DNA from: Candidatus Woesearchaeota archaeon
GTDB lineage: Archaea > Nanobdellota > Nanobdellia > Woesearchaeales > GW2011-AR9
Direction: 5' to 3'
Assembly (NCBI GenBank): GCA_018696595.1
Contig: JABHQW010000003.1
Span: 224,001 to 288,000 of the forward strand
Length of the DNA stretch: 64,000 nt
Shown: positions 22,343-60,922 of the stretch, piece after piece
How positions within the stretch are numbered: the first letter of the stretch is position 1
Layout of the letters: each line of letters begins with the position of its first letter
The notes under the pieces: model-generated
The model's input: the letters and a program-made list of their open reading frames with translations, nothing else
The model's database searches: none
What the model was told of the DNA's origin: nothing
Position numbers and translations under genes: made by a program

Positions 22343-22423
22343 ATTTTAAGAGCAGCGCCAATGGAGGCACATTTTTTGGCTAAAAGACAAAAAATCTCGG
22401 GTGCCGTGCCCTGCTCTTAAAAT
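22343..22423. other. Dispersed hairpin element, copy 1 (core GCCAATGGAGGCAC...GTGCCGTGCC)
   Basis: 13-bp closing inverted repeat ATTTTAAGAGCAG/CTGCTCTTAAAAT; inner stem ATTTTTTG/CAAAAAAT. Confidence 0.8.
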
Positions 22424-22491
22424 GATTTTATAACCCAAGTAAACAATTGACAGACCAACAAATTTATAACCAATAAAATATTACTTTCTTT

Positions 22492-22986
22492 ATGGCTTAT
22501 GCAGTAACCCATATCATTCTAACAATCGTTGTCTTAGATTTATTTAGACATTATGTATTTGGAAAAAGAAGATTTCCGAGATATATGTTAGTGATTGGTG
22601 GGATTGCTGGACTTCTTCCAGACATTGATATTCCTCTTAGTTGGATTTATAATTTATTTACAGGACTCTCAGTTAATTTTCATGGTATGTTTACCCATTC
22701 ATTAATATTCCCAATAATATTTGCTTTGATAGGAGTTATTTTCCATTTCAAAAAAGGGAATCATAAATGGGCAAAGATATTTTACATTATTGCTTTTGGA
22801 TTGTTTTTCCATTCAATATTAGATTGTGCTTTTGGTGGTTACAAAACTTTCTTCTGGCCGTTCTACTTCATAAACTTCTGTCCACAATGGGGAATTGCTA
22901 GTTATATGCAAAGTGTAGATGCAATTATATTAGTTGTTTGGTTGCTACATGAAGAAATACATAATAAGATCAAGGATTATATTTGA
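22492..22986 (+). CDS. Membrane-bound metal-dependent hydrolase (YdjM/DUF457 family)
   Basis: TH...GLLPDIDIP...HGMFTHSL...HSILD; TM helices. Confidence 0.85.
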   Translation: MAYAVTHIILTIVVLDLFRHYVFGKRRFPRYMLVIGGIAGLLPDIDIPLSWIYNLFTGLSVNFHGMFTHSLIFPIIFALIGVIFHFKKGNHKWAKIFYIIAFGLFFHSILDCAFGGYKTFFWPFYFINFCPQWGIASYMQSVDAIILVVWLLHEEIHNKIKDYI

Positions 22987-22988
22987 AA

Positions 22989-24038
22989 ATGAAAAAAGAG
23001 ACAATTCCCGGAACTATCAGGATTCAAGTGAAAGGATTAATTCCTTATCAGAAAACTAAAACCTCTTGGAAGAAATGTTCTCAAAAGTTTCCCAAAGTAA
23101 AAGAGATTGTTAAATTGTTTAAAGCACACAAAAACTTCAACATCCTAGTTGATAAAGTTAATCCAAGATTCCTTAAAGGACAATTGCTAAAAGGAAAAAT
23201 TCAAGGTGCAAGAATTAACGTTCTTCCAGATGGAACAAAAATAGATAAAGCTTATTCTTTATTCGCAGACCATTTAACAGTTCATGATCAAAAGTCAAAT
23301 GAACATTGGGATGTTTTATATCAGAATCCTGGTGGAACGTGGGCTTATTGTTATTCTTTAGAAAAAAAAGCGAAAAACACTATTAAAAAATATAATAAAG
23401 TTCATCAATTTGATAAAGTTTATTCTAACTTAAACAAAAACGTTTCTTCAGCACTAAGAAATAAGAAAGATAACCTTGCCTTACCTATGTATACTTTATT
23501 GAAAACAAGAATGAGAATTGGTAATGAAATTTATTATAAGTTACACAATCATAAAGGATTAACAACATTAAAGAAAAAAAATATTAAAATAAAAGGTAAC
23601 AAAATTGAATTTCAATATGTGGGAAAAGATGGAGTCCCACAAGATGTTGTTAAAGAATTTCCTGTTTCTTACATTAAACGAATGAAAGAACATCTTAAAA
23701 AGATTAAAAGAGAAGATTTTGTTTTTGTTTCTAATTCCGGACACCCATTACCAGAGAAGGAATTCAAATTAGCTTTCAAGAGGTACTGCGGTAAAGAATT
23801 CTATCCCCATATAGTAAGATCTCATTATGCTACAAGTAAAGTTAAAAATTTCATTAAAGGTAAAAGAAAACTCAACAAAAAGGAAGTAAATAAGTTATAT
23901 TTAGAAATTGCTAGTTCTTTAGGGCATAAAAAGTTCTCAAAAAAAGATAATGTTTGGAAAGAAAGTTTCTCTGTTACTGTGGGACATTATATTGAGCCAA
24001 AGTTGGTTGAGAAGGTTAAAAAAATGGTTAGTAAATAA
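22989..24038 (+). CDS. DNA topoisomerase IB (bacterial/viral type)
   Basis: MRIGNE (Arg), GLTTL, FQYVGKDG (Lys), HIVRSHYAT (Arg), SLGH (His) and GHYI (Tyr) give the TopIB catalytic pentad in order. Confidence 0.8.
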   Translation: MKKETIPGTIRIQVKGLIPYQKTKTSWKKCSQKFPKVKEIVKLFKAHKNFNILVDKVNPRFLKGQLLKGKIQGARINVLPDGTKIDKAYSLFADHLTVHDQKSNEHWDVLYQNPGGTWAYCYSLEKKAKNTIKKYNKVHQFDKVYSNLNKNVSSALRNKKDNLALPMYTLLKTRMRIGNEIYYKLHNHKGLTTLKKKNIKIKGNKIEFQYVGKDGVPQDVVKEFPVSYIKRMKEHLKKIKREDFVFVSNSGHPLPEKEFKLAFKRYCGKEFYPHIVRSHYATSKVKNFIKGKRKLNKKEVNKLYLEIASSLGHKKFSKKDNVWKESFSVTVGHYIEPKLVEKVKKMVSK

Positions 24039-24223
24039 ATTCTAACTACAATTAAGTGACAACACCCAAAACATTTATAAACTGAACACGAAGAAATAGA
24101 GTTATAACAGATTATTTTACAGAATATGACCAAAAATGGCACCAGAGAATATCTTCTCTTCATGTTAATGCATTACGTACTGCAGAATCAACTGCTAAAG
24201 CATCAAAGAAATTTAAAAAAATT

Positions 24224-25588
24224 ATGGTTTCTGCAGAAAGAAAGAGACAACAAGCATTAATAAATTATGATCAAACAACAGCTCTTGATTCCTTAGAATC
24301 TAAATTAAGAGCAATAGATATACAAGAAGATTTAGATACAATGGATTTGTCAAGAGAAATAACTTTAGAAGTTGTGCAAATGGAGTTAAGAACACATTTA
24401 CGACAATCATTGACAGAGTTAACTGATATTGGTTGGAAAATGTACCAGGATGATTTAAAACAATTTAATGATGAAGGACAATTAATATTTTATTTCAAGT
24501 TAGCAAATGAATTATTTATGATCAGTGAATTACATGAAATGGAATTTTCTTATCGTACTGATGAACCATTATTATCAGATTGTAATGTATTAAAAGAAAG
24601 ATTATTTCCAAGAGGACCACCTAAAGGAAGTATTGATAGCTTTTTTGAGAGCAGACAAGATGATGTAAAAACTTTGGTCCAAGAATTACAAAGAAATAAT
24701 TATATCACTAAGAAAGCAGCAAGAAAATTAACTCAATTATTAAACCCACTTAGTGCTGAATTAGAAAGAAGAGAAGTGGCTAATATTACTTCAGCGGTAA
24801 GCGAACTTTTTGATAGTATTTATAGTACAATAGAAACACATACAAAACCAGTACCAAAAAAAAAGACAGTTATTGAAGAAAAAGTTGCAACAGGACCAAC
24901 TCCAGAACAAATTGCTGAAAGTCAAGATGTTTTAATTAATTTCTTTGATTTAAGAGAAGAAATTGCTGACAATTATGCTAACCAATTATCTCAATCAGAT
25001 ATAATTCATATGTATAGTCAACTAGCCAACACAATTGGTGACGAACCAGCAATAGCAGTTATTAGAGATAATCCAGAAATTTTAACATATGTACAAACTA
25101 ATCAATGGAGTAAATATGTCAGAGCCTTAAGTGTTATCTGTAACGGAACCGGGCAAGAAACAATTGAAAGTTATCCCACAAATGAATATTCCTCTTTAGA
25201 AAGAGCTTTAGAATTAAAACAAAAAGTTAATTCGTTTGCTAATAGTAAAGATACAGCAGAAATAACTGAAGAATTAACAAAACCAGAATTTGAATTATAC
25301 AGATATACCTTTCTTCATACAGGAAATGAACATGTAAATAGAAGAAGAGAAAGTTTAATTAAAAAAGGAAAAGTAACAGTTACAGACCGAGATCATTGGA
25401 ATGGAGGAAGTTCTGGTGCAAGAGGAAATAACATCATCATGAAATTAGATTATGAAATCGGGATTTTGTTTTCAGACTTGGGCTTACCAGAACCTGATTG
25501 TAATCCTAATTTTGGTCAAAGAACATTATCTATTTCTCCACAAGACCAAGCTAACCTAGCAGAAGTTGCTGCTTTATATTGTAAATAA
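24224..25588 (+). CDS. Large alpha-helical hypothetical protein; the frame is open back to an ATA at 24104
   Basis: 454-aa ORF with no family recognised; upstream in-frame extension read by hand. Confidence 0.75.
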   Translation: MVSAERKRQQALINYDQTTALDSLESKLRAIDIQEDLDTMDLSREITLEVVQMELRTHLRQSLTELTDIGWKMYQDDLKQFNDEGQLIFYFKLANELFMISELHEMEFSYRTDEPLLSDCNVLKERLFPRGPPKGSIDSFFESRQDDVKTLVQELQRNNYITKKAARKLTQLLNPLSAELERREVANITSAVSELFDSIYSTIETHTKPVPKKKTVIEEKVATGPTPEQIAESQDVLINFFDLREEIADNYANQLSQSDIIHMYSQLANTIGDEPAIAVIRDNPEILTYVQTNQWSKYVRALSVICNGTGQETIESYPTNEYSSLERALELKQKVNSFANSKDTAEITEELTKPEFELYRYTFLHTGNEHVNRRRESLIKKGKVTVTDRDHWNGGSSGARGNNIIMKLDYEIGILFSDLGLPEPDCNPNFGQRTLSISPQDQANLAEVAALYCK

Positions 25589-25589
25589 A

Positions 25590-25727
25590 TGGGGCCGCGA
25601 AGACTTTCAAATTCTCTCTTGCGAAAGAATTTTTTGAATTCCAGGATTAATTATTAATCTCTCCGATTCCACGACTTCTGGTTTTGATCCCCAGCCGTGG
25701 GTGCTAACCAAGTTACACTACGGCCCC
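25590..25727 (-). tRNA. tRNA-Pro(GGG) with three introns: 37/38 (25676-25688), 53/54 (25639-25660) and 59/60 (25604-25632)
   Basis: Acceptor GGGGCCG/CGGCCCC with A73; D stem GTGT/GCAC; anticodon stem CACGG/TCGTG; T stem CGGAG/CTTCG; BHB-type helices CTGG/CCAG, TCGG/CTGG and TTCA/TGAA; 138 nt minus 64 nt gives a 74-nt mature tRNA. Confidence 0.88.
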
Positions 25728-25774
25728 GATGAAGTCTAAGTAAAGAATCAATATATAAAATTTACTATAAGAAA

Positions 25775-26188
25775 CTAAAATCTACTTCTCTGATGAAAAT
25801 CTTCTTTTCCCACCAATCCATCTTCTAAAAGAAACTTTTGAGAACCGATATACAAACCATCATGACGTAAATCTAAATTAGCCACTTTAACAAGTCGTTG
25901 ATATTCCCCATCAACAATATTATCCACCCTGGCTTCTCGAATAGAATCAACAAACTCAAAAAAATCATTTCCTCCTGAAGAAAAAAGATATTTCCGTTCT
26001 GCAGTTTCAATTTCTTTTAACAAATCACCATCAATATCTGGGTTTTGTTTAAGAAAACCAGCTTTATTATCAATAATCGCATAAGCACAATAATCCATTT
26101 TAACTTGACTTAAAACAGTTTCATCAAAAAAAGATAATTCTGTCATAAAGCGAAGTACTTCTGATCTCATTTGGTTCATGATAGTCAT
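25775..26188 (-). CDS. Hypothetical protein
   Basis: 137-aa ORF with TATA-like TTTTATAAA upstream on the minus strand. Confidence 0.65.
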   Translation of the reverse strand: MTIMNQMRSEVLRFMTELSFFDETVLSQVKMDYCAYAIIDNKAGFLKQNPDIDGDLLKEIETAERKYLFSSGGNDFFEFVDSIREARVDNIVDGEYQRLVKVANLDLRHDGLYIGSQKFLLEDGLVGKEDFHQRSRF

Positions 26189-26219
26189 AAATCTGTTTGG
26201 AAAAGGTTAGTTTATAAAA

Positions 26220-26654
26220 TTAATGCTTATAAATTTCATTAGTAAAGAAGTTCTTAATTATTTTCACACAAGGTGGAAATACTTTCTCTGGCAATTCTGA
26301 AAAGGAAAACCAACGCCACTCGACTATTTCATCTGGTTCCATTGTTTTAACATCTCCTTCAAAGTCTGTACAAATAAATCCGTTAGTTACAAAATGGTTG
26401 TCATGTACAATTTCATCCGTCACACTAATTAGTTTTAAATTATTAGCTTTCAGACTAGTTTCTTCTTCTAACTCCCTCATAGCACTCTCTTTAATTGTTT
26501 GATGCCAATCAACTTTACCACCTGGCATAGTCCAAGTTCCTTCTCCATGTAATTCAGAACTAGCTTTCTCTGCATCAGAATGTCTTAAACCTAAAAGAAC
26601 CTTATGATTTCTAACAACCATAACTCCTACTCCTGCTCTTGGATATTTTGTCAT
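26220..26654 (-). CDS. NUDIX hydrolase (MutT/NUDT15-like)
   Basis: PRAGVGVMV, GTWTMPGGKV..HQTIKESAMRELEEETSL, MEPDEIVEWRWF. Confidence 0.9.
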   Translation of the reverse strand: MTKYPRAGVGVMVVRNHKVLLGLRHSDAEKASSELHGEGTWTMPGGKVDWHQTIKESAMRELEEETSLKANNLKLISVTDEIVHDNHFVTNGFICTDFEGDVKTMEPDEIVEWRWFSFSELPEKVFPPCVKIIKNFFTNEIYKH

Positions 26655-26707
26655 AATAACAACAAGAAACAAATACATTTAAAAACTTTATGAATAACAT
26701 TTAATAG

Positions 26708-27178
26708 ATGAGAGAAAAACCTAAAGAGCGGTTAACCACCTGGTTATTCCTATTTGCATACTTAACTACTTTAGCAATAACTTTCTTAGACTTTTTCAAA
26801 CTTAAAATATTAACATTTAATTACGAAATCATTTTTGGGATCCTTTTAGCAGGAGGAATAGCCTTAAGACTTCTTTGTAGAATGTGGTTAAGAAGGTTTT
26901 TTAGTATCCATATTAAGATTAAAAAAGACCATGAAATTGTTAGAAAAGGATTATATAAATATGTTAGACATCCGATGTATACTTCTACACTTTTAATTTT
27001 CTTAGGTTTTGCAGGAATATTTTCTTCAATCTTAGGAATAATTGCAACTCTAGTTTTAATACTACCAGTAACTTTGTTAAGAATTAAACGAGAAGAATAT
27101 TATTTGAAACAGAAAACAAAAGAACGTTATGAAGATTATATGAGAAATACTAAGAAACTAATCCCTTTTATTTATTAA
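26708..27178 (+). CDS. Isoprenylcysteine carboxylmethyltransferase (ICMT/Ste14) family membrane protein
   Basis: HEIVRKGLYKYVRHPMYTS, RIKREEYYL, YEDYMRNTKKLIPFIY. Confidence 0.9.
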   Translation: MREKPKERLTTWLFLFAYLTTLAITFLDFFKLKILTFNYEIIFGILLAGGIALRLLCRMWLRRFFSIHIKIKKDHEIVRKGLYKYVRHPMYTSTLLIFLGFAGIFSSILGIIATLVLILPVTLLRIKREEYYLKQKTKERYEDYMRNTKKLIPFIY

Positions 27179-27185
27179 ACAACTT

Positions 27186-28094
27186 CTACTTATTTTTTGT
27201 GATTAAGCTTATTACAGTATCAGAAAAAGGGACAAGGATATCTTTTCTAGTAACTCCAAAATATTCTTGCCAACTTTCATCAAACCAACCACCATGCTTA
27301 AGAAAAGTTTCCTCTTCTTTCACAAAACTAGGATTATCAGAAACTAATAATTTTCCACCTGGCGCTAAACTTTTAGTGATATTAGCCATAGCTAATCTCT
27401 GTGCTTCTGGAGATAATTGATACATAACACTCATGCAATTAGCGAAATGGAATCTTCCTTCATGTAAAACAACATCAGCAATATCATTATGGTGAACATC
27501 AACGTTTCCAGGAAATATTTTTCTAAGTCTACCATGATTAACTTTAAAGGATTTAGGAACCTTTGCTTTCTTAATTCCTTCACGTAAATAATAGTTCGGA
27601 CCAAAACTTCTTGAACTTCGACATTCGGAATCAAAAAGTAATCCTAGCTCTCCTTCAACCGCACCTGAGCAACCTTTAGCAACCTTACAATAATCAAACC
27701 AAGATTCCCCACCAGTTGGATCTTCTTCCCAACTAATTCTTGCAAACAAATGTTTTCTTCCAAGAACATTTTCAACAATCCCAGAATGATTATCAACAAT
27801 AGTCATGCCATATTCAATTCCTTTTTCTTCAAGCTTTGCCCCGATAAAATATGGTTCATAAGAACAAAGTAAAGGATGAGCCCAAATGCCTACACCAATT
27901 TGTAAAACTTCAAACTTTTCCAAAAACTCTACTTCTGGAATTACTTGTTGCTCTAAAACATTTAAAACTCTTGGCATTCGATCAATTCCCGTTTGGGTAA
28001 GATATTTTTCTGAGTCCAACCAAGTACTGCCTTGATGAATAATAACGGGTTCATATCTTTCTCTAAGTTCTGCTAATAATGTGTCTTTATCCAT
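27186..28094 (-). CDS. Class I SAM-dependent methyltransferase (CheR-like C-terminus)
   Basis: VLQIGVG (motif I-like), FHFANCMSVMYQL, SLAPGGKLLV. Confidence 0.6.
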   Translation of the reverse strand: MDKDTLLAELRERYEPVIIHQGSTWLDSEKYLTQTGIDRMPRVLNVLEQQVIPEVEFLEKFEVLQIGVGIWAHPLLCSYEPYFIGAKLEEKGIEYGMTIVDNHSGIVENVLGRKHLFARISWEEDPTGGESWFDYCKVAKGCSGAVEGELGLLFDSECRSSRSFGPNYYLREGIKKAKVPKSFKVNHGRLRKIFPGNVDVHHNDIADVVLHEGRFHFANCMSVMYQLSPEAQRLAMANITKSLAPGGKLLVSDNPSFVKEEETFLKHGGWFDESWQEYFGVTRKDILVPFSDTVISLITKNK

Positions 28095-28142
28095 TAGAAT
28101 TGATTAAGATAAAGAATCTTTTAAAAATCTTTTGTAAAGGAA

Positions 28143-29609
28143 CTACTTAAGGGTAACAACTTCGCCCACTAAACTTCTTAACATATGCGAAACAATCTTA
28201 ACCTTAATCTTCTTACCAAGAGGAATCCGACCTTTAACACCAATAATCAAAGGATAAGTTCCAATTTGTCGACAGAAAGTAGTTTTTCCATCATAAATCT
28301 CTGTGTAAACTTCACTAAGAACAGTTCCAACAGGTACAACTCGTTTCAACATTGGCAAATCAATCTTCTGCCGGATTTCATTTCTCCATTTCCAATAATG
28401 TTTCTTATTCTTTCGCAGAAACTTATTTCCGCCATGCTCTTCCAAATATGTTCCAGGCATAACGACAGCTTGCCGCAAATTAATACGACGCAACATTAAT
28501 CCTGAATCTAAGATCTCTAACAAAGCATCCATGTTCTTCTGATGAGTTCCTTTCCGTTCTTCAAGTAAACCAAAAATCAAATTCAAACCAGGAAGAAAAA
28601 CAGGCATTCCATTCTTGCCCCTCTCTGAACCATACTTGTTGATAATTTCAATTGCTTTCATTGCCACACTAGGAGTCGTGTTCATCCTGTTAGCCTTCAC
28701 AACTTCCGGATCAAAAGATTCAATTCCAAAAGCAGCAATGTTTCCAGGGGTACAATATTTAACAATCGCTTTCGTTATTGCTTCGCCATCTTTAGAAACA
28801 ACAGAATTTGGATTAACATTATCAATATGAAGAACTTCAATCTTTGGACACTTTTTGTTAATCCCCTCCAATAACTCAATAGGCCTATCAATCGCATAAA
28901 AGTCTGCTTGTTTTCCAATACGAAAATAACGAGCCCCCGAATTATAATAAGCAACAACCTCTTCTAAAACACCTTCCATTTTACGATTACAAAACTTATT
29001 CTTGATTGACTCGGTACAAAAACTACACTTCCCGAACTTGCAACCACGAGAAGTTTCAATTTCAATTACTCTTTTATCAGGAATCTGATTCAATATACCG
29101 GCACCTTCAACCACGTATTTATCTAACTCATCAAAAGCATAAGTATAATCTTTAACTTCATTAAACAAAGATAAATCTTCTTTCTCAAAAGATTTTCCAC
29201 CTTCAAGTTGGGTACCAAATACGGCAGGCCCAGTAAGAATTTTCTCACACTTAATATCCTTTAACATTGGCAAGACTTCTTTTAAAGTCCCAGGAACAGC
29301 AGTTAAATATTTGCCAGGAACGTGTACCCCAAGAATTACAATCAACAGATCTGTTTTTAATAAAGTTTCTTCAGCCTTATTCTTGGTAAGGTTATTCACA
29401 TAAATGTTTGTTTTCTCTTTCACAGAAGGTTCTTTCTTAACACCTTTCAACTGTTTCCATAATCTTAAATCATCAATAGTCAGATAATTAACGGAATCTC
29501 CTGAAGAAGTAAACTTACCAAATAAATACCTAGGATAAGTTCCTAAGTATGGTGGAACACCTAATCCAGAAGCTTCATCTGTGTAACAGTCAAGTATAGT
29601 TATGTTCAT
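28143..29609 (-). CDS. Archaeal radical SAM protein with C-terminal TRAM-like domain (COG1031-like)
   Basis: ILDCYTDEASGLGVPPYLGTYPRY, ETSRGCKFGKCSFCTE, HIDNVNP, RRINLRQ. Start moved to MNITILDC. Confidence 0.9.
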   Translation of the reverse strand: MNITILDCYTDEASGLGVPPYLGTYPRYLFGKFTSSGDSVNYLTIDDLRLWKQLKGVKKEPSVKEKTNIYVNNLTKNKAEETLLKTDLLIVILGVHVPGKYLTAVPGTLKEVLPMLKDIKCEKILTGPAVFGTQLEGGKSFEKEDLSLFNEVKDYTYAFDELDKYVVEGAGILNQIPDKRVIEIETSRGCKFGKCSFCTESIKNKFCNRKMEGVLEEVVAYYNSGARYFRIGKQADFYAIDRPIELLEGINKKCPKIEVLHIDNVNPNSVVSKDGEAITKAIVKYCTPGNIAAFGIESFDPEVVKANRMNTTPSVAMKAIEIINKYGSERGKNGMPVFLPGLNLIFGLLEERKGTHQKNMDALLEILDSGLMLRRINLRQAVVMPGTYLEEHGGNKFLRKNKKHYWKWRNEIRQKIDLPMLKRVVPVGTVLSEVYTEIYDGKTTFCRQIGTYPLIIGVKGRIPLGKKIKVKIVSHMLRSLVGEVVTLK

Positions 29610-29713
29610 GATATCATTAATTACTTGTTTTATTATAAATATAACGATTGAAAATATAACTCCCAGTACAACAATGCTTTTTAACAAGTTCAAGATAATA
29701 AATATTGAAAAAG

Positions 29714-30286
29714 ATGGTCTATAAAATAGGATTAACTTCTACCCACGGCACAGGAAAAACATCATTAAGATTCGATGTTGCTGGCGCTTTATCAAAAAGG
29801 GGGATCAAAACAATTGATGTTAGAGAAGTCGCCACATTAGCAACACATTTGGGGATTCCGATTAACCAAGAGACAACTTTAGAAGCACAAGCATGGATAT
29901 TACATAAACAATGCACATTAGAACTTAAAGGAGAAATCGACAAATATCAAGCTATTGTTTCAGATAGGACGGTTTTTGATAATTATATCTATTTAGCTAA
30001 TGCCTGTGGAGAAAACCCTCATTATTTGAATTTAGCATTGAACCATGCAAAACAACACCCATATTCAAAGATTTATTTATTACCTGTAGTTGGAGAACTG
30101 GAAGAAAATGGAACCAGAGATGCTGAAGATAAACAATTTCAAATAACCATCAATGACAAATTAGAAGCATTTCTGGAAAAACATAATATTGAACATATTA
30201 AACTTCCAATTCCTAAACCTTATGATGGCGATAGAGAAGAGTGGTTAAAATTAATTGTTTATGAAACACTTAAAGATTTAGAATAA
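29714..30286 (+). CDS. P-loop nucleotide kinase-like ATPase (NadR/AAA_28-like)
   Basis: STHGTGKTS Walker A, VSDRTVFD, ENGTRD. Confidence 0.75.
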   Translation: MVYKIGLTSTHGTGKTSLRFDVAGALSKRGIKTIDVREVATLATHLGIPINQETTLEAQAWILHKQCTLELKGEIDKYQAIVSDRTVFDNYIYLANACGENPHYLNLALNHAKQHPYSKIYLLPVVGELEENGTRDAEDKQFQITINDKLEAFLEKHNIEHIKLPIPKPYDGDREEWLKLIVYETLKDLE

Positions 30287-30290
30287 TAGA

Positions 30291-31016: not shown

Positions 31017-31052
31017 TAAATAAGAAAAAAGAAAAAAGAAAAAAAAAGAAAT

Positions 31053-47371: not shown

Positions 47372-47378
47372 AAAGAAT

Positions 47379-50128: not shown

Positions 50129-50140
50129 TTTTCAATACCT

Positions 50141-51978: not shown

Positions 51979-52539
51979 ATGGTAGACGAAAACTATGATC
52001 TCTTACCTCATAAACTTCTTGCAGACTTAAAAGAAGATGTGGATTCTTTAAAAAAGAAAATGAACGAACCAAATCAAAAGATTAACGAACTAATCTTAGA
52101 GATTGAAAGTATGAAAGATGTGGTAAATGATTTAAACACAATATTTCAAAAAGCTTTGGCACAAACCAAAGATGCGGACCCACATCAAATTATTAAAGTT
52201 CTTGCACAAAGAACAGAAACGGTATTGAATCAAAACGAAACTATTGCTAAAGGCATGGTAGCAATTTCTGATAAATTAGAGAGTTGGATGGAAACACAGA
52301 GTCAAGTTGTAAGTAAACCAATACCACAACATGCCCCTGTGGCTCAGCAACAACAACAACAACATATGCCACCACCCCAAATGGGGACATCGCAACATAG
52401 TATGGGTCCGCCAGAGATGCCGGGCAATAGAGTTGCTCCAATGCCACCGATGGCAGGACAACAGCAAGGAGGGATGGATATGCCGCCACCACCGCCAGGT
52501 TCAAGTAAGAAAAATATAATTGGTGGATTATTCAAATAA
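51979..52539 (+). CDS. Coiled-coil protein with a Pro/Gln/Met-rich C-terminal tail
   Basis: Heptad-rich N-terminal half; QQQQQQHMPPP and MPPPPPG; GGTGA SD. Confidence 0.75.
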   Translation: MVDENYDLLPHKLLADLKEDVDSLKKKMNEPNQKINELILEIESMKDVVNDLNTIFQKALAQTKDADPHQIIKVLAQRTETVLNQNETIAKGMVAISDKLESWMETQSQVVSKPIPQHAPVAQQQQQQHMPPPQMGTSQHSMGPPEMPGNRVAPMPPMAGQQQGGMDMPPPPPGSSKKNIIGGLFK

Positions 52540-52541
52540 AG

Positions 52542-53408: not shown

Positions 53409-53473
53409 AGTTCTTGAAGATATATATTTGCGGAGGATAATATTTTTAAATCATTTCTAATTAATTATTGTCT

Positions 53474-53986
53474 ATGAAAGAATTATTAAGAGAAGTTTAT
53501 TTCTTTAAAGGATTAGATGATGAACAAATTGGTCAAGTTTGTGGCATTTCTATGTTTTCCACTTATCAACCAGGAAAAATAATTATTACTGAAGGAGCAA
53601 TAGATGATAAATTTTATATCATTCAATCTGGAGGAGTAGAAGTTTATACGAAACCTTTTCTTGAAGCGGAGAAACAAATATTAGCCACATTAGGAGCAGG
53701 AAATTTTTTTGGAGAAGTTGCTGCAATCTTTGGTAGACCAAGAACAGCTTATATTGCTGCAACAGATCAAACTTATGCTTTAGAAGTTGATGGAACAGAA
53801 CTGAAAAATTTGATGAGAGATAACTCATCACTGGGATCTTTAATTATGTATGGAATTGCAGAAGAATTAGCACGAAGACAAGAAACATCTAATAAAAGAG
53901 TAAAGGATCTTGAAATTGAAAAGAATACTTTGGCAGCAAAGTTGCACATAGCTGAGACTAAAATTCCAAGAAAGAAACGTGATTAA
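53474..53986 (+). CDS. Cyclic nucleotide-binding domain protein
   Basis: YQPGKIIITEG..DDKFYIIQSGGVEV, LGAGNFFGEVA..GRPRTA. Confidence 0.9.
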   Translation: MKELLREVYFFKGLDDEQIGQVCGISMFSTYQPGKIIITEGAIDDKFYIIQSGGVEVYTKPFLEAEKQILATLGAGNFFGEVAAIFGRPRTAYIAATDQTYALEVDGTELKNLMRDNSSLGSLIMYGIAEELARRQETSNKRVKDLEIEKNTLAAKLHIAETKIPRKKRD

Positions 53987-54029
53987 ACAGTAATATTTAT
54001 ATAAGATTTCTTGATTTTCTATGTTTATT

Positions 54030-54167
54030 GCCCCTGTGGCCTAGCGGTATGGCGTTGCATTGGTAAATCTTAACTTAGTTTTCGTTAAGTTCAAAGATGC
54101 AGAGATCCCGAGTTCAATTTCCGTAAGGGAGTTACAAACCCTTCGTTTGAAAGTCTCGGCAGGGGCT
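54030..54167 (+). tRNA. tRNA-Thr(GGT) with two introns: 37/38 (54066-54096) and 59/60 (54119-54153)
   Basis: Acceptor GCCCCTG/CAGGGGC with U73; anticodon stem TTGCA/TGCAG; T stem CCGAG/CTCGG; BHB helices TTGG/TCAA and TTCA/TGAA. Confidence 0.9.
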
Positions 54168-54212
54168 CTCTTTTTTTCAATAAACTTTAAAAATAAAACC
54201 AACTTCTAAGCA

Positions 54213-54345
54213 TTGCTTATCTCATTAGGTATAGCTTAGCCCCTTTGTGGGCACTTTGCTTTCCAGTTACCCTTTACAGACCTAGTGCTGTATTTCGGGC
54301 CCGGGAGGATACCTTTTACAACAGCAACCCTTTTGAGATAAGCAA
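54213..54345 (+). ncRNA. Putative orphan structured RNA (~133 nt)
   Basis: 12-bp closing stem TTGCTTATCTCA/TGAGATAAGCAA; nested AGGTAT/ATACCT, GCCC/GGGC and TACAG/CTGTA stems; TTTAAAAA about 20 nt upstream; GC-enriched with no ORF. Confidence 0.45.
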
Positions 54346-54364
54346 CTTAATTCTCAACAGAAGT

Positions 54365-54461
54365 AAGTAATATGTCTACTTTGCCAATGGAGGCACATGG
54401 CACACTAATTAAAAAATTTAACAGGTGCCATAATCGTGCCGTGCAAGTTGATATATTACTT
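54365..54461. other. Dispersed hairpin element, copy 2 (core GCCAATGGAGGCAC...GTGCCGTGC)
   Basis: 17-bp imperfect closing inverted repeat; inner stem ATGGCAC/GTGCCAT. Confidence 0.8.
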
Positions 54462-54506
54462 CTAAACAAAAGAAATTCTTATATAACAAACAACTAAACA
54501 AATTCC

Positions 54507-55430
54507 ATGCTAAATCAAATATCACAAGAAATTAAATCCATGATTAACAGTTTCTCTGCAGAAGATAATATAGTTTTCAATAACAAAGTCATCAGAATAA
54601 ACAAAGATAATTTCCAAGAGATAGTCCTAAATGAAAACAAAACACTAGCTTTCATCGATGGTGGACAAGCAGAGATAATCTCAACTGGAAACTTCTGCCT
54701 CTCTTTCATCAGAATAGCAGCTGTTTTCTTTCAAAACAATAAAAAAATCAACCAAATTAAGAAAGAATTCTATTTGTTTACTAAATCTAAATACTTAAAC
54801 GAAGATTTATACTATGAATCAAAGATATTTGGAAACAAAATAATCAATGAAGAAGATTTATTAATCTCTTCTAATGATTCCAGTATTAAAACAGGATCAG
54901 AACGAGCACCAATTTCTAAAATAACAAACATGGCTAGAAGATTTGCAGAATTATCTTTAGCAAAAGAAATCCAAGCAGACCACATTATCTTAGATGGTAC
55001 TTTAGAACCAACTTTTAAGAATGAAGAAAAATATATTCCCAATAATGCTTCAGCCCTAGCAAAATCATCATCTCTATTCACAACATCAGGAAATTCGCCA
55101 GTAATTCTCTTAAATAAAATAGGATTAAGTAATTGTTGGAGTTATTTCTTAGAGAATAAAACTTATTTTGTAAAATTGAATCAGAAAGCCAAACATGTCT
55201 TCCGATTTGAAGGTAATAGAGAAGCTCTCCCCCATTTAGTTAGTAATTCTAAAGATGCTTTGTTCCTTGGTTATCCGTATGGATTAATCTTTGTGGATCA
55301 GATAGCTAGAGTTTCAAATTCTGAAAAGAATTCTTTGAAAATGAATTTCTTGTTGAGAAAAGATAATCAGGAAATTGCTGAGTATTTGTCTACGAGTAAC
55401 GCCCATGAGATATTGGATAATATTTCTTAA
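54507..55430 (+). CDS. nurA: NurA-family nuclease
   Basis: LAFIDGG, RRFAELSLA, IILDGTL, LAKSS, LGYPYGLIFVDQIARVS. Confidence 0.8.
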   Translation: MLNQISQEIKSMINSFSAEDNIVFNNKVIRINKDNFQEIVLNENKTLAFIDGGQAEIISTGNFCLSFIRIAAVFFQNNKKINQIKKEFYLFTKSKYLNEDLYYESKIFGNKIINEEDLLISSNDSSIKTGSERAPISKITNMARRFAELSLAKEIQADHIILDGTLEPTFKNEEKYIPNNASALAKSSSLFTTSGNSPVILLNKIGLSNCWSYFLENKTYFVKLNQKAKHVFRFEGNREALPHLVSNSKDALFLGYPYGLIFVDQIARVSNSEKNSLKMNFLLRKDNQEIAEYLSTSNAHEILDNIS

Positions 55431-55485
55431 TGTAATTACTACTTACCAGTAAGATTTATAAAAACGTCCTCTTCTAAACGTATTA

Positions 55486-56373
55486 ATGACTTATAAATCC
55501 TATTTCAATCAATTAGCAGCAAGAGAACAAATTGAACCATTAAAAGAAGCAATCGAAATAACAATTGATTTAAGTTACGCAAGTAGTGTTCTTTTCCAAC
55601 AGTATCCAATAGACAAACCCTTTGAGGAACTAATAGTCTATCAAGTCTTAGATGAACTTGCCGATCTTTCTGAACAACATGAGTCAGCAGAAGGTTTAGC
55701 AAAATTAATTTGGTATCCAGCAAAAGTCATTTGTGCTGTTATGGACCATAAAATACTACATAAAGAAGAAGGCCAGTACATTAAAGAAGCAACCGAATTA
55801 GCACTTGGCATTTACAATGGAGAAGCCACAAGAGAAGAAATTCTTGCTTTAAAAGATAAATTCATGAGTGATGAAAAAAATAAAGTGGGTTTTTCAAGAT
55901 TAGATATTTACGGTAAAAAAATTGCTGATCAAAGGTCTTGCAAAGCTATGGACCCAAAGTACAGTGAAAAGGCAGTAAAAAGTTTAACTGAAACTGTTAA
56001 CGGGGAAGATATTTTATTCATTGCGTTAGGTAATGGGGGAATTGCCCCAGGTTTAGATGTATTCCTGCGTTATTGCAACCAGAATGAAACAGATTCTACA
56101 TTTTATCCGGTTCGTTTTTCCTCACATAAAAGAGCAGACCAAACACCCCAGCTCAATGATTGGGAAGCAAAATATCTTCAAGAAGTAAGAGGAGATAAAA
56201 AAGTAGTAATATTTGATGAAGACACATCAAGCGGTTTAACTTTGAAAAGAAGTCACGAATTCTTCTGTCCTAGTTTTGTTTCAGATAAAGACATTATTCT
56301 AATGACAAATGAAGAAGGAACTCTTGAAATAGATGACCTTTGGTATAATCAAATAAGAAAGAAATCAGCTTAA
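55486..56373 (+). CDS. Hypothetical protein with a C-terminal type I phosphoribosyltransferase-like domain
   Basis: FIALGNGG; VVIFDEDTSSGLTL resembles the PRPP-binding loop. Confidence 0.65.
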   Translation: MTYKSYFNQLAAREQIEPLKEAIEITIDLSYASSVLFQQYPIDKPFEELIVYQVLDELADLSEQHESAEGLAKLIWYPAKVICAVMDHKILHKEEGQYIKEATELALGIYNGEATREEILALKDKFMSDEKNKVGFSRLDIYGKKIADQRSCKAMDPKYSEKAVKSLTETVNGEDILFIALGNGGIAPGLDVFLRYCNQNETDSTFYPVRFSSHKRADQTPQLNDWEAKYLQEVRGDKKVVIFDEDTSSGLTLKRSHEFFCPSFVSDKDIILMTNEEGTLEIDDLWYNQIRKKSA

Positions 56374-56457
56374 TTATACTCTACAACAGCATAAACTTTA
56401 TAATAGATTAACTTAAAGCTAACATATTAAAAATTTTTAAAAAGCAGGTGATGTTAA

Positions 56458-57234
56458 ATGAGAAGTATTTGTGTTATTAATCATAAAGGTGGAGTAGGAA
56501 AAACTACTACTGCCGTAAGTTTAGCTTCTGGATTGTCCAGAAATGATAAAAATGTTCTACTAGTGGATTTAGACCCGCAAAGTAATGTTAGTGTTTCACT
56601 AAAAGTAGATGCCCCATATAATTTATATGATGCTTTACAAGGAAATATTCCATTAAAAAGGTGTATTACAAATCTGGCTAAAAATCTTGACGTTTTGGCT
56701 TCTAAAGAAACTTTAGTAAAAGCAGAATATTTCTTAGCTAATAAGCTAGGATCAAAAATGCTTCTAAGAGATTTGTTAAATACCCTAGAACATGATTATG
56801 ATTATATTATCATTGATTGTCCACCATCATTAGGAATATTAAATCAGAATGTGTTGGCTTTCTGTAAAGAAGCGTTTGTTCCAACATCTACTGATTTCTT
56901 AGGATTAGATGCTTTGAAGAAAATGCAGATCATTGTTGAAAAGATTAACTCTAACTATAACCACAATATCAAGATAACTAAAGTTGTTCCAACATTCTTT
57001 GACAGAAGAACAAAGATTTGTAAAAATACTTTAATAGAAATGGAAAGAATGTTTAATGGTGTTGTTGCTGACCCAATTAGAACTAATTCTAAATTAAGAG
57101 AAGCACCAATGCATGGTAAATCTATCTTTAATTATGCTAGATCTAGTAATGGAGCTAAAGATTATGAAAAATTGGTAGATGGCGTCTTGCAAATGGGTTC
57201 TATTAGGGTTACTGAAGAAACTATTATGGCTTAG
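56458..57234 (+). CDS. parA: ParA/Soj family ATPase
   Basis: NHKGGVGKTTTA, VDLDPQSN, IIDCPPSLG, IRTNSKLREAP.HGKSI. Confidence 0.92.
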   Translation: MRSICVINHKGGVGKTTTAVSLASGLSRNDKNVLLVDLDPQSNVSVSLKVDAPYNLYDALQGNIPLKRCITNLAKNLDVLASKETLVKAEYFLANKLGSKMLLRDLLNTLEHDYDYIIIDCPPSLGILNQNVLAFCKEAFVPTSTDFLGLDALKKMQIIVEKINSNYNHNIKITKVVPTFFDRRTKICKNTLIEMERMFNGVVADPIRTNSKLREAPMHGKSIFNYARSSNGAKDYEKLVDGVLQMGSIRVTEETIMA

Positions 57235-57257
57235 TTCTTTTTTATTATTATTTTTCT

Positions 57258-57953
57258 TTATTTTTTTAAATATCCCTTCCTTTTTCCTTCTTCTAATCGT
57301 TCAATAGAATATCTTAACATCGTTCGAGGCATTTCAGCATAATGTTGATCCAAGAATCCAGTTAAAATTTTTTCATCACGTTTCCCAATCTCACGTAACA
57401 TCCAACCAACTGCTTTGTGAATCAAATCGTGCTTATCATTAAGTAATATCTCAGAAATCTTCAAAGAATCTTTGAAATCTCCTAAGCGAATGAAAGCAAA
57501 TGTTGCTAAAACAGAAATGCGCCGTTCCCACAATGAAGAGGATTTAACCAATTTATACAAAATGCTTCGATCATTGTCAACCAAATAAGCACCAACTGTT
57601 TTGGGAATAGTTACATCAACCAAATCCCAATTGTTAATATAGGCAGTATTCTTTAGAAAAAATTCATAAATCTCTTTTCTAGAATCAGTATCTTTCTCAT
57701 ATTTGTAAACCAACATCACCAAAGCACACATTCTAAATTCATGATATTTGCTTTTAACTAACTCTTGAACAAAAGATAAAGTAATTTCCTTAAAGTATTT
57801 CTTAGCAATAACTCTAATTTGAGGCATAGTCAAACCTAAAAAAACGTCCCCTTCACCATACTCCCCAGGCCCAGTCTTAAAGAATCCCTGGGAATGTTTA
57901 GCTCTTACAGGATCAGACGATTCATACAATTCCATAATTATTTGTTTCAACAT
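57258..57953 (-). CDS. DNA alkylation repair protein (AlkD-like)
   Basis: FFKTGPGEYGEGDVFLG, HEFRMCAL, INNWDLVD, LWERR, DLIHKAVGWMLRE, MPRTMLRYSIE. Confidence 0.92.
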   Translation of the reverse strand: MLKQIIMELYESSDPVRAKHSQGFFKTGPGEYGEGDVFLGLTMPQIRVIAKKYFKEITLSFVQELVKSKYHEFRMCALVMLVYKYEKDTDSRKEIYEFFLKNTAYINNWDLVDVTIPKTVGAYLVDNDRSILYKLVKSSSLWERRISVLATFAFIRLGDFKDSLKISEILLNDKHDLIHKAVGWMLREIGKRDEKILTGFLDQHYAEMPRTMLRYSIERLEEGKRKGYLKK

Positions 57954-57997
57954 ACAATTACAAATATTTAAAAACATAAAAACATTTCCTTTTCAGT

Positions 57998-58564
57998 ATG
58001 TCTTTCCTAAACTTCCTAAAAAAAGAGCGTTTAATTTGGCACAGAAGGTTCATTCCCAGTTTAATTGCAGGCATTGCAGTTGGAATTATTACATTTTTCT
58101 TTGAAATGACCGCTTCAAATATAGTTATGTTTGCTTCTTTAGGTGCAAGTGCAGCAATAATCACCCATAAACAGATTCATAAATTAAATATTCTAAGAAC
58201 AGTTATCTTTTCTTACCTAATTTCTTTGATTGTTAGCGGAGTTGTTATATACTTGATCCATCATTATTCCTTATCTTTTTCAATTGCTGCCTTGATTGCA
58301 GTATCATTAGCAACATTATTTATGTATTTGGGAGATGTTTTTCATCCGCCAGCAATATCTGCAGCTTTATCTTTTGTATTGTTAGATGGTGGATTTTGGG
58401 AAACAATTGTAATTTTCTTTTCTGTAATTGTTCTGTTAATCATTACTAAAATATTAACTTATATTTTTTATTACGAACATTTAGAAATGCACAAGTTCAA
58501 GATGGAATTTAAGAAATTAGAACGGGAAGAAAAGAAGAAATGGAAAAGAATGTTTAAGAAATAG
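57998..58564 (+). CDS. HPP family membrane protein
   Basis: ASLGASA, FHPPAISAAL; TM helices. Confidence 0.85.
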   Translation: MSFLNFLKKERLIWHRRFIPSLIAGIAVGIITFFFEMTASNIVMFASLGASAAIITHKQIHKLNILRTVIFSYLISLIVSGVVIYLIHHYSLSFSIAALIAVSLATLFMYLGDVFHPPAISAALSFVLLDGGFWETIVIFFSVIVLLIITKILTYIFYYEHLEMHKFKMEFKKLEREEKKKWKRMFKK

Positions 58565-58737
58565 AATTCTAACATATTAAAAAAATAAAAAAAAAGAAAT
58601 CTTGCCCATAAGATGATCCTTACAGGGGTGGTGTAAGAGAAATAATTTAAGGGCAAGATATATGAAAATGAGACACGCAACACTTTGCATGCCAACAACT
58701 ACACCTCTTTTTCCCAGATTAAGGGAATACTTGTTCC

Positions 58738-59802
58738 TTAAACCAACTCGATTCCTAACTCTTTACTCAAAGTTTGTGCTCTTGTCTCAGATCTCTTTTG
58801 ATCAACTTTACCTAAAATCCAAGGACTGTTAACTCCGGTAATGATTGTCATTACTGTTAGTTTTCCTTTCATGTTGTCATCTACTCTTGCTCCCCAGATT
58901 ACATTAGCATCATCATCTAAAGATTCAGTTACTAATTCTCCAATCCGAGATACATCATCCAAAGTCATGTCCGGTCCACCAGTAACATGAATCAAAGCTC
59001 CTGTAGCTCCTTCATAGCTAATATCTAGTAAAGGATTACTCAAAGCACCTTTTACAGCTTCATCAACTCTGTTATTAGTATCGGAAGAACCCACACCAAT
59101 AGCTGCTACACCACCATTACTCATGATTGCTTTTACGTCAGCATAGTCTAAGTTAACTAAACTTGGTACAGCAATAGTTTCAACAATTCCTTTAATCATA
59201 GTTGAAATTAACTCATTTGCAACAGAGAATGCTTGTTGAATTGGTAAATTACCAGCAATTTGTACTAATCTGTTGTTATCAATTACAATTACAGTATCAC
59301 AAACTTGTCTTAACTGTTGTAATCCAAACTCAGCTTTATCACATCTTGCTCTTTCAATGTTGAAAGGCATTGTTACAGTTCCGATTACAATTGCTCCAGT
59401 ATCTTTAGCAACTTGTGCTACTACAGGTGAAGCTCCAGTTCCCGTTCCGCCACCCATTCCTGCGCAAACAAAAACCATGTCAGAAGTTTTTAAAGCATCC
59501 TTAACAACAGTCATAGATTCCTGAGCTGCTTCTGCTCCTCTACTTGGGAATCCACCACAGCCTAAACCACGAGTGCAATCTTTTCCAATTAAAAACTTTC
59601 GATCTGCTCCTGTAATGTTAAGATGCTGATGATCAGTATTAGTTGCAATAATCTCAGCTCCCTTTATTCCTTTCTTGTATAGCCAGCCAACCATATTGTT
59701 ACCAGCTCCGCCAACGCCAATAACCTTAATATTAGCTTGACTCATGTTCTCAAAATCGTGCTCTGGCGCGTTGTTCAGAGCGTTTTCCACGATAAAATCC
59801 AT
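58738..59802 (-). CDS. ftsZ: Cell division protein FtsZ
   Basis: IGVGGAGNN, GMGGGTGTG, NLDYAD, VIWGA. Confidence 0.98.
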   Translation of the reverse strand: MDFIVENALNNAPEHDFENMSQANIKVIGVGGAGNNMVGWLYKKGIKGAEIIATNTDHQHLNITGADRKFLIGKDCTRGLGCGGFPSRGAEAAQESMTVVKDALKTSDMVFVCAGMGGGTGTGASPVVAQVAKDTGAIVIGTVTMPFNIERARCDKAEFGLQQLRQVCDTVIVIDNNRLVQIAGNLPIQQAFSVANELISTMIKGIVETIAVPSLVNLDYADVKAIMSNGGVAAIGVGSSDTNNRVDEAVKGALSNPLLDISYEGATGALIHVTGGPDMTLDDVSRIGELVTESLDDDANVIWGARVDDNMKGKLTVMTIITGVNSPWILGKVDQKRSETRAQTLSKELGIELV

Positions 59803-60099
59803 TTTTACACCACCTCAAATTTTTCCACCCTCAAGTGTGTTTTTTTTTGGAATATATATATATATATACTCCAGCACACAAAAGATTATAAATGTGTTAT
59901 ACTTTTCTACTACTAGAATTAACCAAATTCGAAACCTATAACCAAAACCTAATTTAAACTGATAGAATTAACTTATAATTTTATCCAATACGTTTTTTCA
60001 AAGGTAACCAGCCTTTAAAACACCCAAACCTATTTTCTAGTAAAGTGCTCCCCCTATATAAAGATTTCGCTTCTCAAATATTTAAGAAAATAATTGCAT

Positions 60100-60768
60100 T
60101 TAACGCTCTAAATTAAGTTTCTCTTTAACTTTATCGACGACAGAACTACTAACTTTTTGTAACGAAACTTTTGTGGCGTTTGCTTTTCTTGCCAGAATTG
60201 TAGCAGTATCATTCATATACTTTGCTGGATCCCTTAACCTTAATCTCCAAGAACCAAAATAAACAACCGTTTCTAAAGGATATTTAGGGGGTTTAGGAGG
60301 GACTTCTTTTGGATAACCAATAGCAATGATTGCTTGTGGTCGAACATCAGGAGGAATCTTAAACATAGTCTTAAGCGCTTCCTCGTCAAAGCCACCAATC
60401 CATCTTGTTCCCAATCCAAGAGACTCGGCTTCTAATAACATATTTTGAATAGCAGCAGCGCAATTTTGTACAGAATAAAGCCGTTCTCCCCTTAAACCAT
60501 AGTACCTTTCAGCTTTTTCTGGCTCTCCACAAACAATAATTAAAGTTCCTGCTTGTATAATTTCATATTGTTTGTAAGCTGCTTCTGCAACTTGCTGTTT
60601 TTGATCAGGATCTGAGACTAAAAGAAACTTCCAGTTCTGTACATTTCCGCAACTAGGAGCATGTCTACCAGCGTCAATTATACGAGAAATTTTCTCCCAA
60701 GAAACATATTTAGGCATAAATGTCTTAATTGTACGTCTATTCTTAATTAAGTCTAAAATATCACCCAT
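60100..60768 (-). CDS. Nitroreductase family protein
   Basis: IKNRRTIK, APSCGNVQNWKF, AAIQNMLLEAESLGLGTRWIG. Confidence 0.92.
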   Translation of the reverse strand: MGDILDLIKNRRTIKTFMPKYVSWEKISRIIDAGRHAPSCGNVQNWKFLLVSDPDQKQQVAEAAYKQYEIIQAGTLIIVCGEPEKAERYYGLRGERLYSVQNCAAAIQNMLLEAESLGLGTRWIGGFDEEALKTMFKIPPDVRPQAIIAIGYPKEVPPKPPKYPLETVVYFGSWRLRLRDPAKYMNDTATILARKANATKVSLQKVSSSVVDKVKEKLNLER

Positions 60769-60852
60769 TTTAAATAAGTAATATCTTAAGGGTATTTATA
60801 TTTAACGTTTTTTGTTAGAGTTAAAATGGTTAGTAACACCAATTTTAAGACA

Positions 60853-60922
60853 AAACACCAGCGGCAATGGAGGCGCATAAATTTACAAAGGAAATTTATC
60901 ACCGCGCCGCGCTCTGGTGTTT
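60853..60922. other. Dispersed hairpin element, copy 3 (core GGCAATGGAGGCGC...GCGCCGCGCT)
   Basis: 9-bp closing inverted repeat AAACACCAG/CTGGTGTTT; inner stem ATAAATTT/AAATTTAT. Confidence 0.8.

What the first reader, a model, noticed from the sequence alone, without database searches (positions are those of the whole stretch)
22343..60922. Novel dispersed hairpin element with conserved core and three-way covariation (3 copies)
Seen at 22343-22423, 54365-54461 and 60853-60922, all intergenic and in the same orientation. Architecture: variable closing stem (9-17 bp), then Y-G(C/G)CAATGGA-GGCRC, a variable inner hairpin, a 4-5 nt bulge, GYGCC-GYGC and the closing stem. The outer and inner stems differ completely in sequence yet pair in every copy. 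The R of GGCRC covaries with both Y positions of the tandem GYGCC-GYGC (A/T/T in two copies, G/C/C in the third), so GGCRC could pair with either repeat, as in a two-state switch. The copies lie upstream of the TATA boxes of the flanking plus-strand genes, so they are not simple 5' UTRs. I do not recognise it as attC, a known REP, riboswitch or ribozyme. Inference: an undescribed structured RNA or ssDNA recognition site (non-autonomous mobile hairpin, recombination or processing site).
Basis: partly seen in the sequence, partly recalled or inferred. Interest (0 to 1): 0.85.

Follow-up and report, generated by a model that had tools for sequence, protein, structure and literature searches.

The report
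Hairpin core of an archaeal MITE
The three look-alike hairpins are real, but they are the folded centres of small non-coding jumping-DNA elements (MITEs) left behind in a tiny marine DPANN archaeon by an IS6-type transposase. They are not a new riboswitch-like RNA.

Summary
All three hairpins exist as described. The family has 22 copies in this 1.19-Mb Woesearchaeota genome, on both strands and always between unrelated genes. It occurs in 11 of 23 same-family genomes (0 to 38 copies) and in none of 16 genomes from other families of the order.

The stems covary strongly. The claimed three-way covariation fails: in 39 of 84 copies R/Y1 are G/C while Y2 stays T, so there is no two-state switch. 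Rfam gives no match.

Fresh copies in related genomes show that the hairpin is the centre of a 100-180-bp palindromic MITE. These copies have GGnnnTGTCAAGTT-type inverted ends and perfect 9-bp target duplications. The same ends and 9-bp duplications flank a 933-bp insertion sequence that encodes a DDE_Tnp_IS240 (IS6-family) transposase.

Window copy 2 is missing from the same site in both congeners. Copy 1 is half-deleted in one congener. This genome has no such transposase, so its copies are relics.

The unusual points are that the asymmetric core is conserved better than the ends, and that copies nest inside each other's apical loop.

This scan reached the same reading earlier on other pieces of this genome.

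The parts
22340..22427 (+).
   Evidence: Best model hit in the genome, 90.4 bits; fold. In same-genus genome G001 only the 5' arm plus GCACCAA survives at the orthologous site. G002 has a different small hairpin there.
22442..22456 (+). Right terminal-repeat remnant of the copy 1 MITE (AACAATTGACAGACC; reverse complement GGTCTGTCAATTGTT)
   Evidence: Resembles the GGnnnTGTCAAGTT end. The G001 deletion ends exactly here. No left end or target duplication is recognisable.
54351..54359 (+). Left copy of the 9-bp target duplication of copy 2 (TTCTCAACA)
   Evidence: Matches 54460-54468 at 8 of 9 positions. G001 and G002 have a single related stretch at this place.
54360..54459 (+). Copy 2: a whole 100-bp MITE. 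Its outer stem is the diverged terminal repeat (GTAATATGTCTACTT / GTAATATATCAACTT); hairpin core at 54366-54461 by the model
   Evidence: Absent from the orthologous site of both same-genus genomes, with well-aligned flanks; 55.2 bits.
54460..54468 (+). Right copy of the 9-bp target duplication of copy 2 (TTCTAAACA)
60846..60930 (+).
   Evidence: 53.9 bits; arms compared. No such element at the corresponding place in G001, though that alignment is poor.

Best explanation

A complete element is a 100-180-bp near-perfect palindrome. It has 14-17-bp terminal inverted repeats of the type GGnnnTGTCAAGTT (variants GGCACTGTCCAGAATA and GGCTTCATCCGGAATAG), then copy-specific paired arms, then the core. 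The core reads nGCC-AAWnGAG-GGCRC, inner hairpin, 4-6-nt bulge, GYGCC-GUGCn.

The elements carry no gene. They are moved in trans by an IS6-family DDE transposase (264 aa, DDE_Tnp_IS240, with an N-terminal zinc finger) encoded by a 933-934-bp insertion sequence whose left end is identical to the MITE ends. Insertion duplicates 9 bp of target.

Shown: the ends, the duplications, the empty sites and the matching insertion sequence. Inferred: that this transposase moves them, by analogy with IS26-type copy-in transposition.

In this genome no such transposase is found. Most copies have lost their ends, so they are immobile relics that are being deleted piecemeal.

The 'covariation' reflects DNA palindromy. 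Both arms of each sub-family match, probably because the element works or is repaired as a fold-back or cruciform. It does not reflect an RNA under selection.

Why the core is kept better than the ends is not settled. My best guess, about 50% given the MITE reading, is a cis-acting accessory site or fold that helps the element spread or be tolerated.
For: 1. Three identical 131-bp copies in one related genome share the GG(T/C)AATGTCAAGTT ends, and two of them have perfect 9-bp duplications. Near-identical 180-bp copies in another genome behave the same way.

2. Across 97 copies, six have both ends of the first type and four have both ends of the second type. Eight of these ten have perfect 9-bp duplications and one has 8 of 9. 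A generic scan finds 7 copies with ends plus duplication, against 0 in a reversed control, and one of the 7 is a copy in this genome at C3:284119.

3. Two insertion sequences of 934 and 933 bp have 9-bp duplications, and the left end of the 933-bp one matches the MITE ends 16/16 and 22/22. Their ORF is DDE_Tnp_IS240 at E 4e-18.

4. Window copy 2 is absent at the orthologous site of both congeners. Conversely, this genome has empty sites where relatives carry copies.

5. Copy number ranges from 0 to 38 among 23 same-family genomes. All 22 copies here are intergenic, next to unrelated genes such as HIT, RFC, YdjM, NurA and nitroreductase, and in either orientation.

6. G-U (15 cells) is not favoured over A-C (8) or other mismatches (54).

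7. Copies are nested. Reverse-strand model hits enclose forward hits, which fits DNA insertion or recombination.

8. There is no Rfam match.
Against: 1. Only about 10 of 97 copies keep recognisable ends and duplications. For the rest, including window copies 1 and 3, a MITE origin is inferred from the shared core and arms.

2. No sampled autonomous insertion sequence contains the core. The core could therefore be a separate module that MITEs merely carry.

3. The 9-bp duplication differs from the 8 bp that defines canonical IS6 elements (PMC7986276).

4. The transposase was not found in G000, G001, G002 or G041, although G002 and G041 hold fresh-looking copies. Unassembled insertion sequences could explain this, but it is not shown.

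5. The GC-rich core persists in a 32% GC genome while the ends decay. That hints at some function after insertion which this explanation does not specify. The comparison is also biased, because copies were found through their core.
Confidence: 0.82

Rival explanations
1. The core is a mobile or recombining hairpin module in its own right, REP/REPIN-like or targeted to hairpin apices. It lands in the centres of palindromes, including MITEs and other copies of itself, so the IS6-type ends are only one of its carriers.
For: Copies sit inside the apical loop of an inverted, diverged copy. A MITE with the same ends has an unrelated interior (L172:2563-2702). Another MITE has the outer shell but a different apical insert (L210). 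Longer MITEs hold strings of other mini-hairpins. 75 of 97 copies show neither end type. The core is shared by sub-families with different end variants and is conserved better than those ends.
Against: No enzyme candidate was found: there is no Y1/HUH transposase and no TnpB in this genome, and no recurring neighbour protein in 75 loci. Every copy with a datable insertion has inverted ends plus a 9-bp duplication that encloses the whole palindrome. At the copy 2 empty site the whole hairpin, outer stem included, is missing and no palindrome pre-exists there. The missing ends can be explained by age.
Confidence: 0.1
2. The hairpins are genes or processing sites for a structured RNA, for example a protein-binding small RNA or a bulge-helix-bulge-like site cut by the splicing endonuclease. 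Selection on the RNA fold would then explain the covariation.
For: The covariation is very strong and some loop positions never vary. The two unpaired stretches lie on opposite strands at opposite ends of a short GC helix, which recalls bulge-helix-bulge geometry (reading). This organism has multi-intron tRNAs. The core outlasts the MITE ends.
Against: There is no Rfam hit. No conserved promoter lies at a fixed distance, because the flanks beyond the palindrome are unrelated. Both orientations occur relative to neighbouring genes. G-U is not enriched. A same-genus genome has no intact copy and half of the family lacks the element. The helix is 5 bp and the loops are 7 and 4-6 nt, not the 3-4-3 of bulge-helix-bulge. 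There is no tandem G.A pair for a K-turn. None of 80 copies lies inside an open reading frame.
Confidence: 0.06

Closest known systems
MITEs derived from IS6/IS26-family insertion sequences (ISfinder lists two, of 227 and 336 bp; PMC7986276)
   Same: They are short and non-coding. They have GG-starting terminal inverted repeats of about 14 bp like those of a DDE_Tnp_IS240 insertion sequence, direct target duplications and many dispersed copies.
   Different: The target duplication is 9 bp, not 8. The elements are shorter (100-180 bp) and palindromic along their whole length. They carry a conserved asymmetric hairpin core that is not present in the sampled parent insertion sequences. The host is a DPANN archaeon.
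Long-hairpin bacterial MITEs (Neisseria Correia/NEMIS, enterobacterial ERIC/IRU), as reviewed in PMC10969869
   Same: They are intergenic, fold into long hairpins, have many copies, vary in presence between strains, and include nested or composite forms.
   Different: The end sequences and target duplications are unrelated. For Correia and ERIC elements, roles at the RNA level are documented; none is shown here. This comparison rests on my own knowledge of those families.
REP/REPIN elements mobilised by RAYT (HUH Y1) transposases
   Same: They are dispersed intergenic palindromes with a conserved asymmetric feature and covarying stems, often placed right after stop codons.
   Different: No Y1_Tnp gene is found in this genome. 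Here there are inverted ends plus 9-bp duplications, which REPs lack.
Integron attC sites
   Same: They are imperfect hairpins in which structure is conserved more than sequence, with unpaired bases that mark one strand.
   Different: No RYYYAAC / GTTRRRY boxes lie at the ends. The copies are not arranged in cassette arrays and are not next to an integrase.

Membership tests
MITE (miniature inverted-repeat transposable element) | Terminal inverted repeats at both ends | tested here: met
   GGnnnTGTCAAGTT-type or GGCTTCATCCGGAATAG-type ends are present on both sides in 10 of 97 copies and on one side in 12 more. In the window, copy 2 has diverged ends and copy 1 has a right end only.
MITE (miniature inverted-repeat transposable element) | Direct target-site duplication of fixed length | tested here: met
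   Perfect 9-bp duplications are seen in 8 of the 10 copies with both ends, and in further MITEs. Window copy 2 has 8 of 9. The reversed control gives 0.
MITE (miniature inverted-repeat transposable element) | Small, non-coding, multi-copy, with presence/absence at orthologous sites | tested here: met
   Elements are 100-180 bp. There are 22 copies here and up to 38 in a congener. Empty sites are shown.
MITE (miniature inverted-repeat transposable element) | An autonomous insertion sequence with the same ends | tested here: met
   Insertion sequences of 933-934 bp in L173 and L175 have a left end identical to the MITE ends (16/16 and 22/22) and the same 9-bp duplication.
IS6/IS26 family (for the mobilising element) | DDE transposase of the IS240/IS26 type | tested here: met
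   PF13610 at E 4.1e-18, 66 bits against a cut-off of 27.
IS6/IS26 family (for the mobilising element) | 8-bp target duplication | tested here: not met
   The duplication is 9 bp in both insertion-sequence copies and in all MITE copies that could be read. The 8-bp rule is taken from PMC7986276.
IS6/IS26 family (for the mobilising element) | Transposition through cointegrates (copy-in) | not testable with these tools
   This needs an experiment.
REP/REPIN-RAYT | A cognate HUH Y1 transposase in the genome | tested here: not met
   PF01797 gives no match in the 97%-complete genome, while the control genomes do match.
Integron attC | R''/R' boxes (RYYYAAC ... GTTRRRY) closing the hairpin | tested here: not met
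   No such boxes lie at the ends of any of the three copies.
Known RNA families (Rfam 15: riboswitches, ribozymes, sRNAs) | A match to a curated covariance model | tested here: not met
   The whole window gives no hit at gathering score. Copies 1 and 2 give only noise at E up to 10.
Archaeal bulge-helix-bulge splice site | Two 3-nt bulges on opposite strands separated by a 4-bp helix | tested here: not met
   The loops are 7 nt (opposite 2 nt) and 4-6 nt, and the helix is 5 bp. Only the geometry is similar.
Kink-turn | Tandem sheared G.A/A.G pairs next to a 3-nt bulge | tested here: not met
   The short strand reads G-U where G-A is required, and the loop is 5 nt or more (reading).

The most novel reading that the evidence does not exclude
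The asymmetric core is not passive cargo. It would be a functional module kept by selection after the transposon ends decay, and shared by MITE sub-families with different end specificities. Possible roles are a binding or folding site that lets hairpin modules nest in one another's apex, or a site the host has taken over, such as a bulge-helix-bulge-like RNA processing site or an insulator. That would make these 'onion' palindromes a new kind of modular mobile element in DPANN archaea.
Probability: 0.15. Interest if true: 0.65.

Novelty: new member of a known kind. Interest (0 to 1): 0.35.

Why it matters
It removes a false lead. These GC-rich covarying hairpins look like a new riboswitch or ribozyme class, but they are transposon relics.

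It also documents that the very small genomes of marine Woesearchaeota carry, and turn over, a MITE family tied to an IS6-type insertion sequence with an atypical 9-bp target duplication. I found no paper describing it.

For annotation, the elements create spurious N-terminal extensions, as in the ORF at 21732-22370 on the minus strand. They also mark recent indels between sister species.

The one open and mildly interesting point is why the asymmetric core is conserved better than the transposase-binding ends.

Tried and rejected
- **Rfam.** The whole window and two copies gave nothing.
- **tRNA scan.** No tRNA was found.
- **Y1/HUH transposase and TnpB in this genome.** None found.
- **Multi-copy protein families near the copies.** None in this genome, and no recurrent neighbour in 75 loci from other genomes (one search was empty because of my own filter bug).
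- **Core inside autonomous insertion sequences.** It was not found in 2 close and 30 more distant IS6-type loci, nor in 6 IS5-type loci. A GC-clamped leader hairpin in the insertion sequence scores only 9.9 bits (E 0.66), which is not evidence of homology.
- **Viral contigs.** No match to the core pattern.
- **A second, IS5-type mobiliser for the GGCTTCATCC ends.** I considered this and dropped it, because intermediate end variants (GGCACTGTCCAGAATA) link them to the IS6-type ends.
- **Small-ORF reading (MEAH...) and Shine-Dalgarno mimicry of AAUGGAGG.** Rejected, because the G of GGAGG varies while other positions never do.
- **Preference for gene 3' ends or terminators.** 17 of 22 copies have a gene 3' end next to them, which is about what any intergenic region would give.
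- **In-frame insertion in genes.** None of 80 copies lies in an open frame.
Full report
**The observation.** Each folds into an outer stem, a 5' internal loop (AAUGGAG opposite GU), a 5-bp GC helix (GGCRC/GYGCC), a variable inner hairpin and a 4-6-nt 3' bulge. Folding energies are 3 to 5 sd better than shuffles on either strand. Rfam has nothing at gathering score in the window and nothing meaningful at E up to 10 on copies 1 and 2.

**Copy number and context.** The window lies in a 1.19-Mb, 32% GC, 97%-complete genome, which earlier notes of this scan call a marine Woesearchaeota or DPANN archaeon.
- The gapped core pattern matches 11 times, against 0 for the reversed control.
- A covariance model built from 18 copies finds 22 copies.
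- All 22 are intergenic and lie on both strands. They sit next to unrelated housekeeping genes, and their orientation relative to those genes is mixed.

**What fails.** In 84 parsed copies R and the first Y covary perfectly (45 A/T, 39 G/C). The second Y is always T. GGCRC therefore pairs with the first repeat only, and window copy 3 is an outlier.

**Distribution.** The model finds the element in 11 of 23 genomes of the same family and in 0 of 16 genomes from other families of the order. Counts run from 0 to 38, and the two same-genus genomes have 0 and 38. An exact-pattern scan of species-representative genomes finds it in many Woesearchaeota and Nanoarchaeota MAGs, including one from groundwater. 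The few hits in GC-rich bacteria are at about the number expected by chance. This is the pattern of an accessory or selfish element, not a housekeeping RNA.

**Orthologous sites.**
- Copy 2 is cleanly missing from the same site in both congeners. Their flanks align well on each side.
- For copy 1, G001 keeps only the 5' arm plus GCACCAA. The deletion runs to the end of a terminal-repeat-like motif at 22442-22456. G002 has a different small hairpin at this site.
- Conversely, this genome has empty sites where relatives carry copies.

**What the mobile unit is.** Identical or near-identical copies within other genomes show where the similarity stops.
- In one MAG, three 131-bp copies share the ends GG(T/C)AATGTCAAGTT ... 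AACTTGACATTACC, and the two whose flanks could be read have perfect 9-bp direct repeats.
- In another MAG, 180-bp copies have 16-bp perfect ends (GGCTTCATCCGGAATA) and 9-bp repeats.
- Across 97 copies, ten keep both ends. Eight of the ten have perfect 9-bp duplications and one has 8 of 9.
- A generic scan finds 7 such copies, against 0 in a reversed control. One of the 7 is a copy in this genome.
- Window copy 2 has an 8-of-9 duplication (54351-54359 and 54460-54468). Its 'outer stem' is itself a diverged terminal repeat.
- Intermediate end variants such as GGCACTGTCCAGAATA link the two end types.

**The mobiliser.** In the genome with identical copies, one such end starts a 934-bp unit with a 9-bp duplication and a 264-aa ORF. 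The ORF is DDE_Tnp_IS240, the IS6 family, at E 4e-18, with an N-terminal zinc finger. A second copy at 88% identity in another genome is 933 bp, again with a 9-bp duplication. Its left end matches the MITE ends 16/16 and 22/22.

The IS6 family is described as making 8-bp duplications, and only two MITEs are listed for it in ISfinder (PMC7986276). This is therefore an atypical branch.

The transposase is found in 35 of 401 genomes of the order. It is not found in this genome or its two congeners. The window's copies are therefore relics.

**DNA or RNA?** Stem covariation is very strong: 95.9% of cells pair, 16 of 18 pairs show double changes, and 0 of 500 shuffles reach this. A palindromic DNA element gives the same signal. 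G-U or U-G (15 cells) is no commoner than A-C or C-A (8) or other mismatches (54), which does not fit selection on one RNA strand. There is no shared upstream promoter, and both orientations occur. RNA data could not be obtained (no weight is placed on this).

**Unusual points.**
- Copies nest. In the 135-180-bp form, one core sits in the apical loop of a second, inverted and diverged core. This shows up as reverse-strand model hits that enclose forward hits.
- Four copies in this genome carry a roughly 45-nt insert in the inner hairpin. Longer MITEs in G002 contain strings of unrelated mini-hairpins.
- The interior, and above all the asymmetric GC-rich core, is conserved better than the ends across sub-families. 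It also outlasts the ends in this genome. Part of this is ascertainment, because copies were found through the core.
- No sampled autonomous insertion sequence contains the core. Its origin and role remain open.

**Verdict.** The object is the core of an IS6-type MITE family, here mostly as decaying relics. Other agents of this scan reached the same reading on other pieces of this genome (notes e1-5473820, e1-5473872, e1-701997, e1-5473898). I re-derived the ends, the duplications and the parent insertion sequence independently.

Noticed in passing
window 54014-54150 (+): A tRNA gene that appears to carry two introns, one in the anticodon loop and one in the T arm. The acceptor stem reads GCCCCTG...CAGGGGC. 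ARAGORN finds no tRNA anywhere in the window, and Rfam's tRNA model scores only 18.6 bits. The gene is conserved in G002; G001 has a different tRNA-like sequence at this place.
   Followed up: partly
window ~54195-54345 (+): A roughly 150-nt intergenic stretch that is conserved far better than its surroundings in all three same-genus genomes. It has long-range pairing (TTGCTTATCTCA ... TGAGATAAGCAA) and a GUGCUGU ... GGGCCCGGGAGGA ... ACAGCAAC centre, which from memory recalls SRP RNA helix 8. There is no Rfam hit. This is a candidate unannotated structured RNA, and MITE copy 2 sits immediately after it.
   Followed up: partly
window 21732-22370 (-): The longest ORF of this minus-strand gene runs into hairpin copy 1, so its first codons are the reverse complement of the element. 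The true start is probably internal.
   Followed up: partly
L144:6414-6781 and L211:57-369 (G002): MITEs of 368 and 312 bp with perfect ends and 9-bp duplications. Their interior holds a string of about 30-nt mini-hairpins of the type CTGAAAAYTAA-loop-TTARTTTTCAG. The same mini-hairpin type also interrupts the ortholog of the G000 C5:44886 copy (L101) and occupies the copy 1 site in G002.
   Followed up: partly
L172:2563-2702: A 140-bp MITE with the same IS6-type ends and a 9-bp duplication (GAAAACTAG), but an interior unrelated to the hairpin core.
   Followed up: partly
L215:633-1626 and L218:806-2034 (G040): Two IS5/IS4-type (DDE_Tnp_1) insertion sequences with GGCTYTG... ends, also with 9-bp target duplications.
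   Followed up: partly
G000 C2:52970, C3:230599, C3:348599, C4:31516: Four 'long-form' copies carry a roughly 45-nt insert in the inner hairpin with a shared motif, CAYGAARCAAMGYGWAGUG. Its nature is unknown.
   Followed up: no
whole genome G000 (e.g. C1:2465-, C2:8088-, C3:237564+, C6:20278+): Many genes are preceded by AAUGGAGGU/A about 8 nt before the ATG.
   Followed up: no
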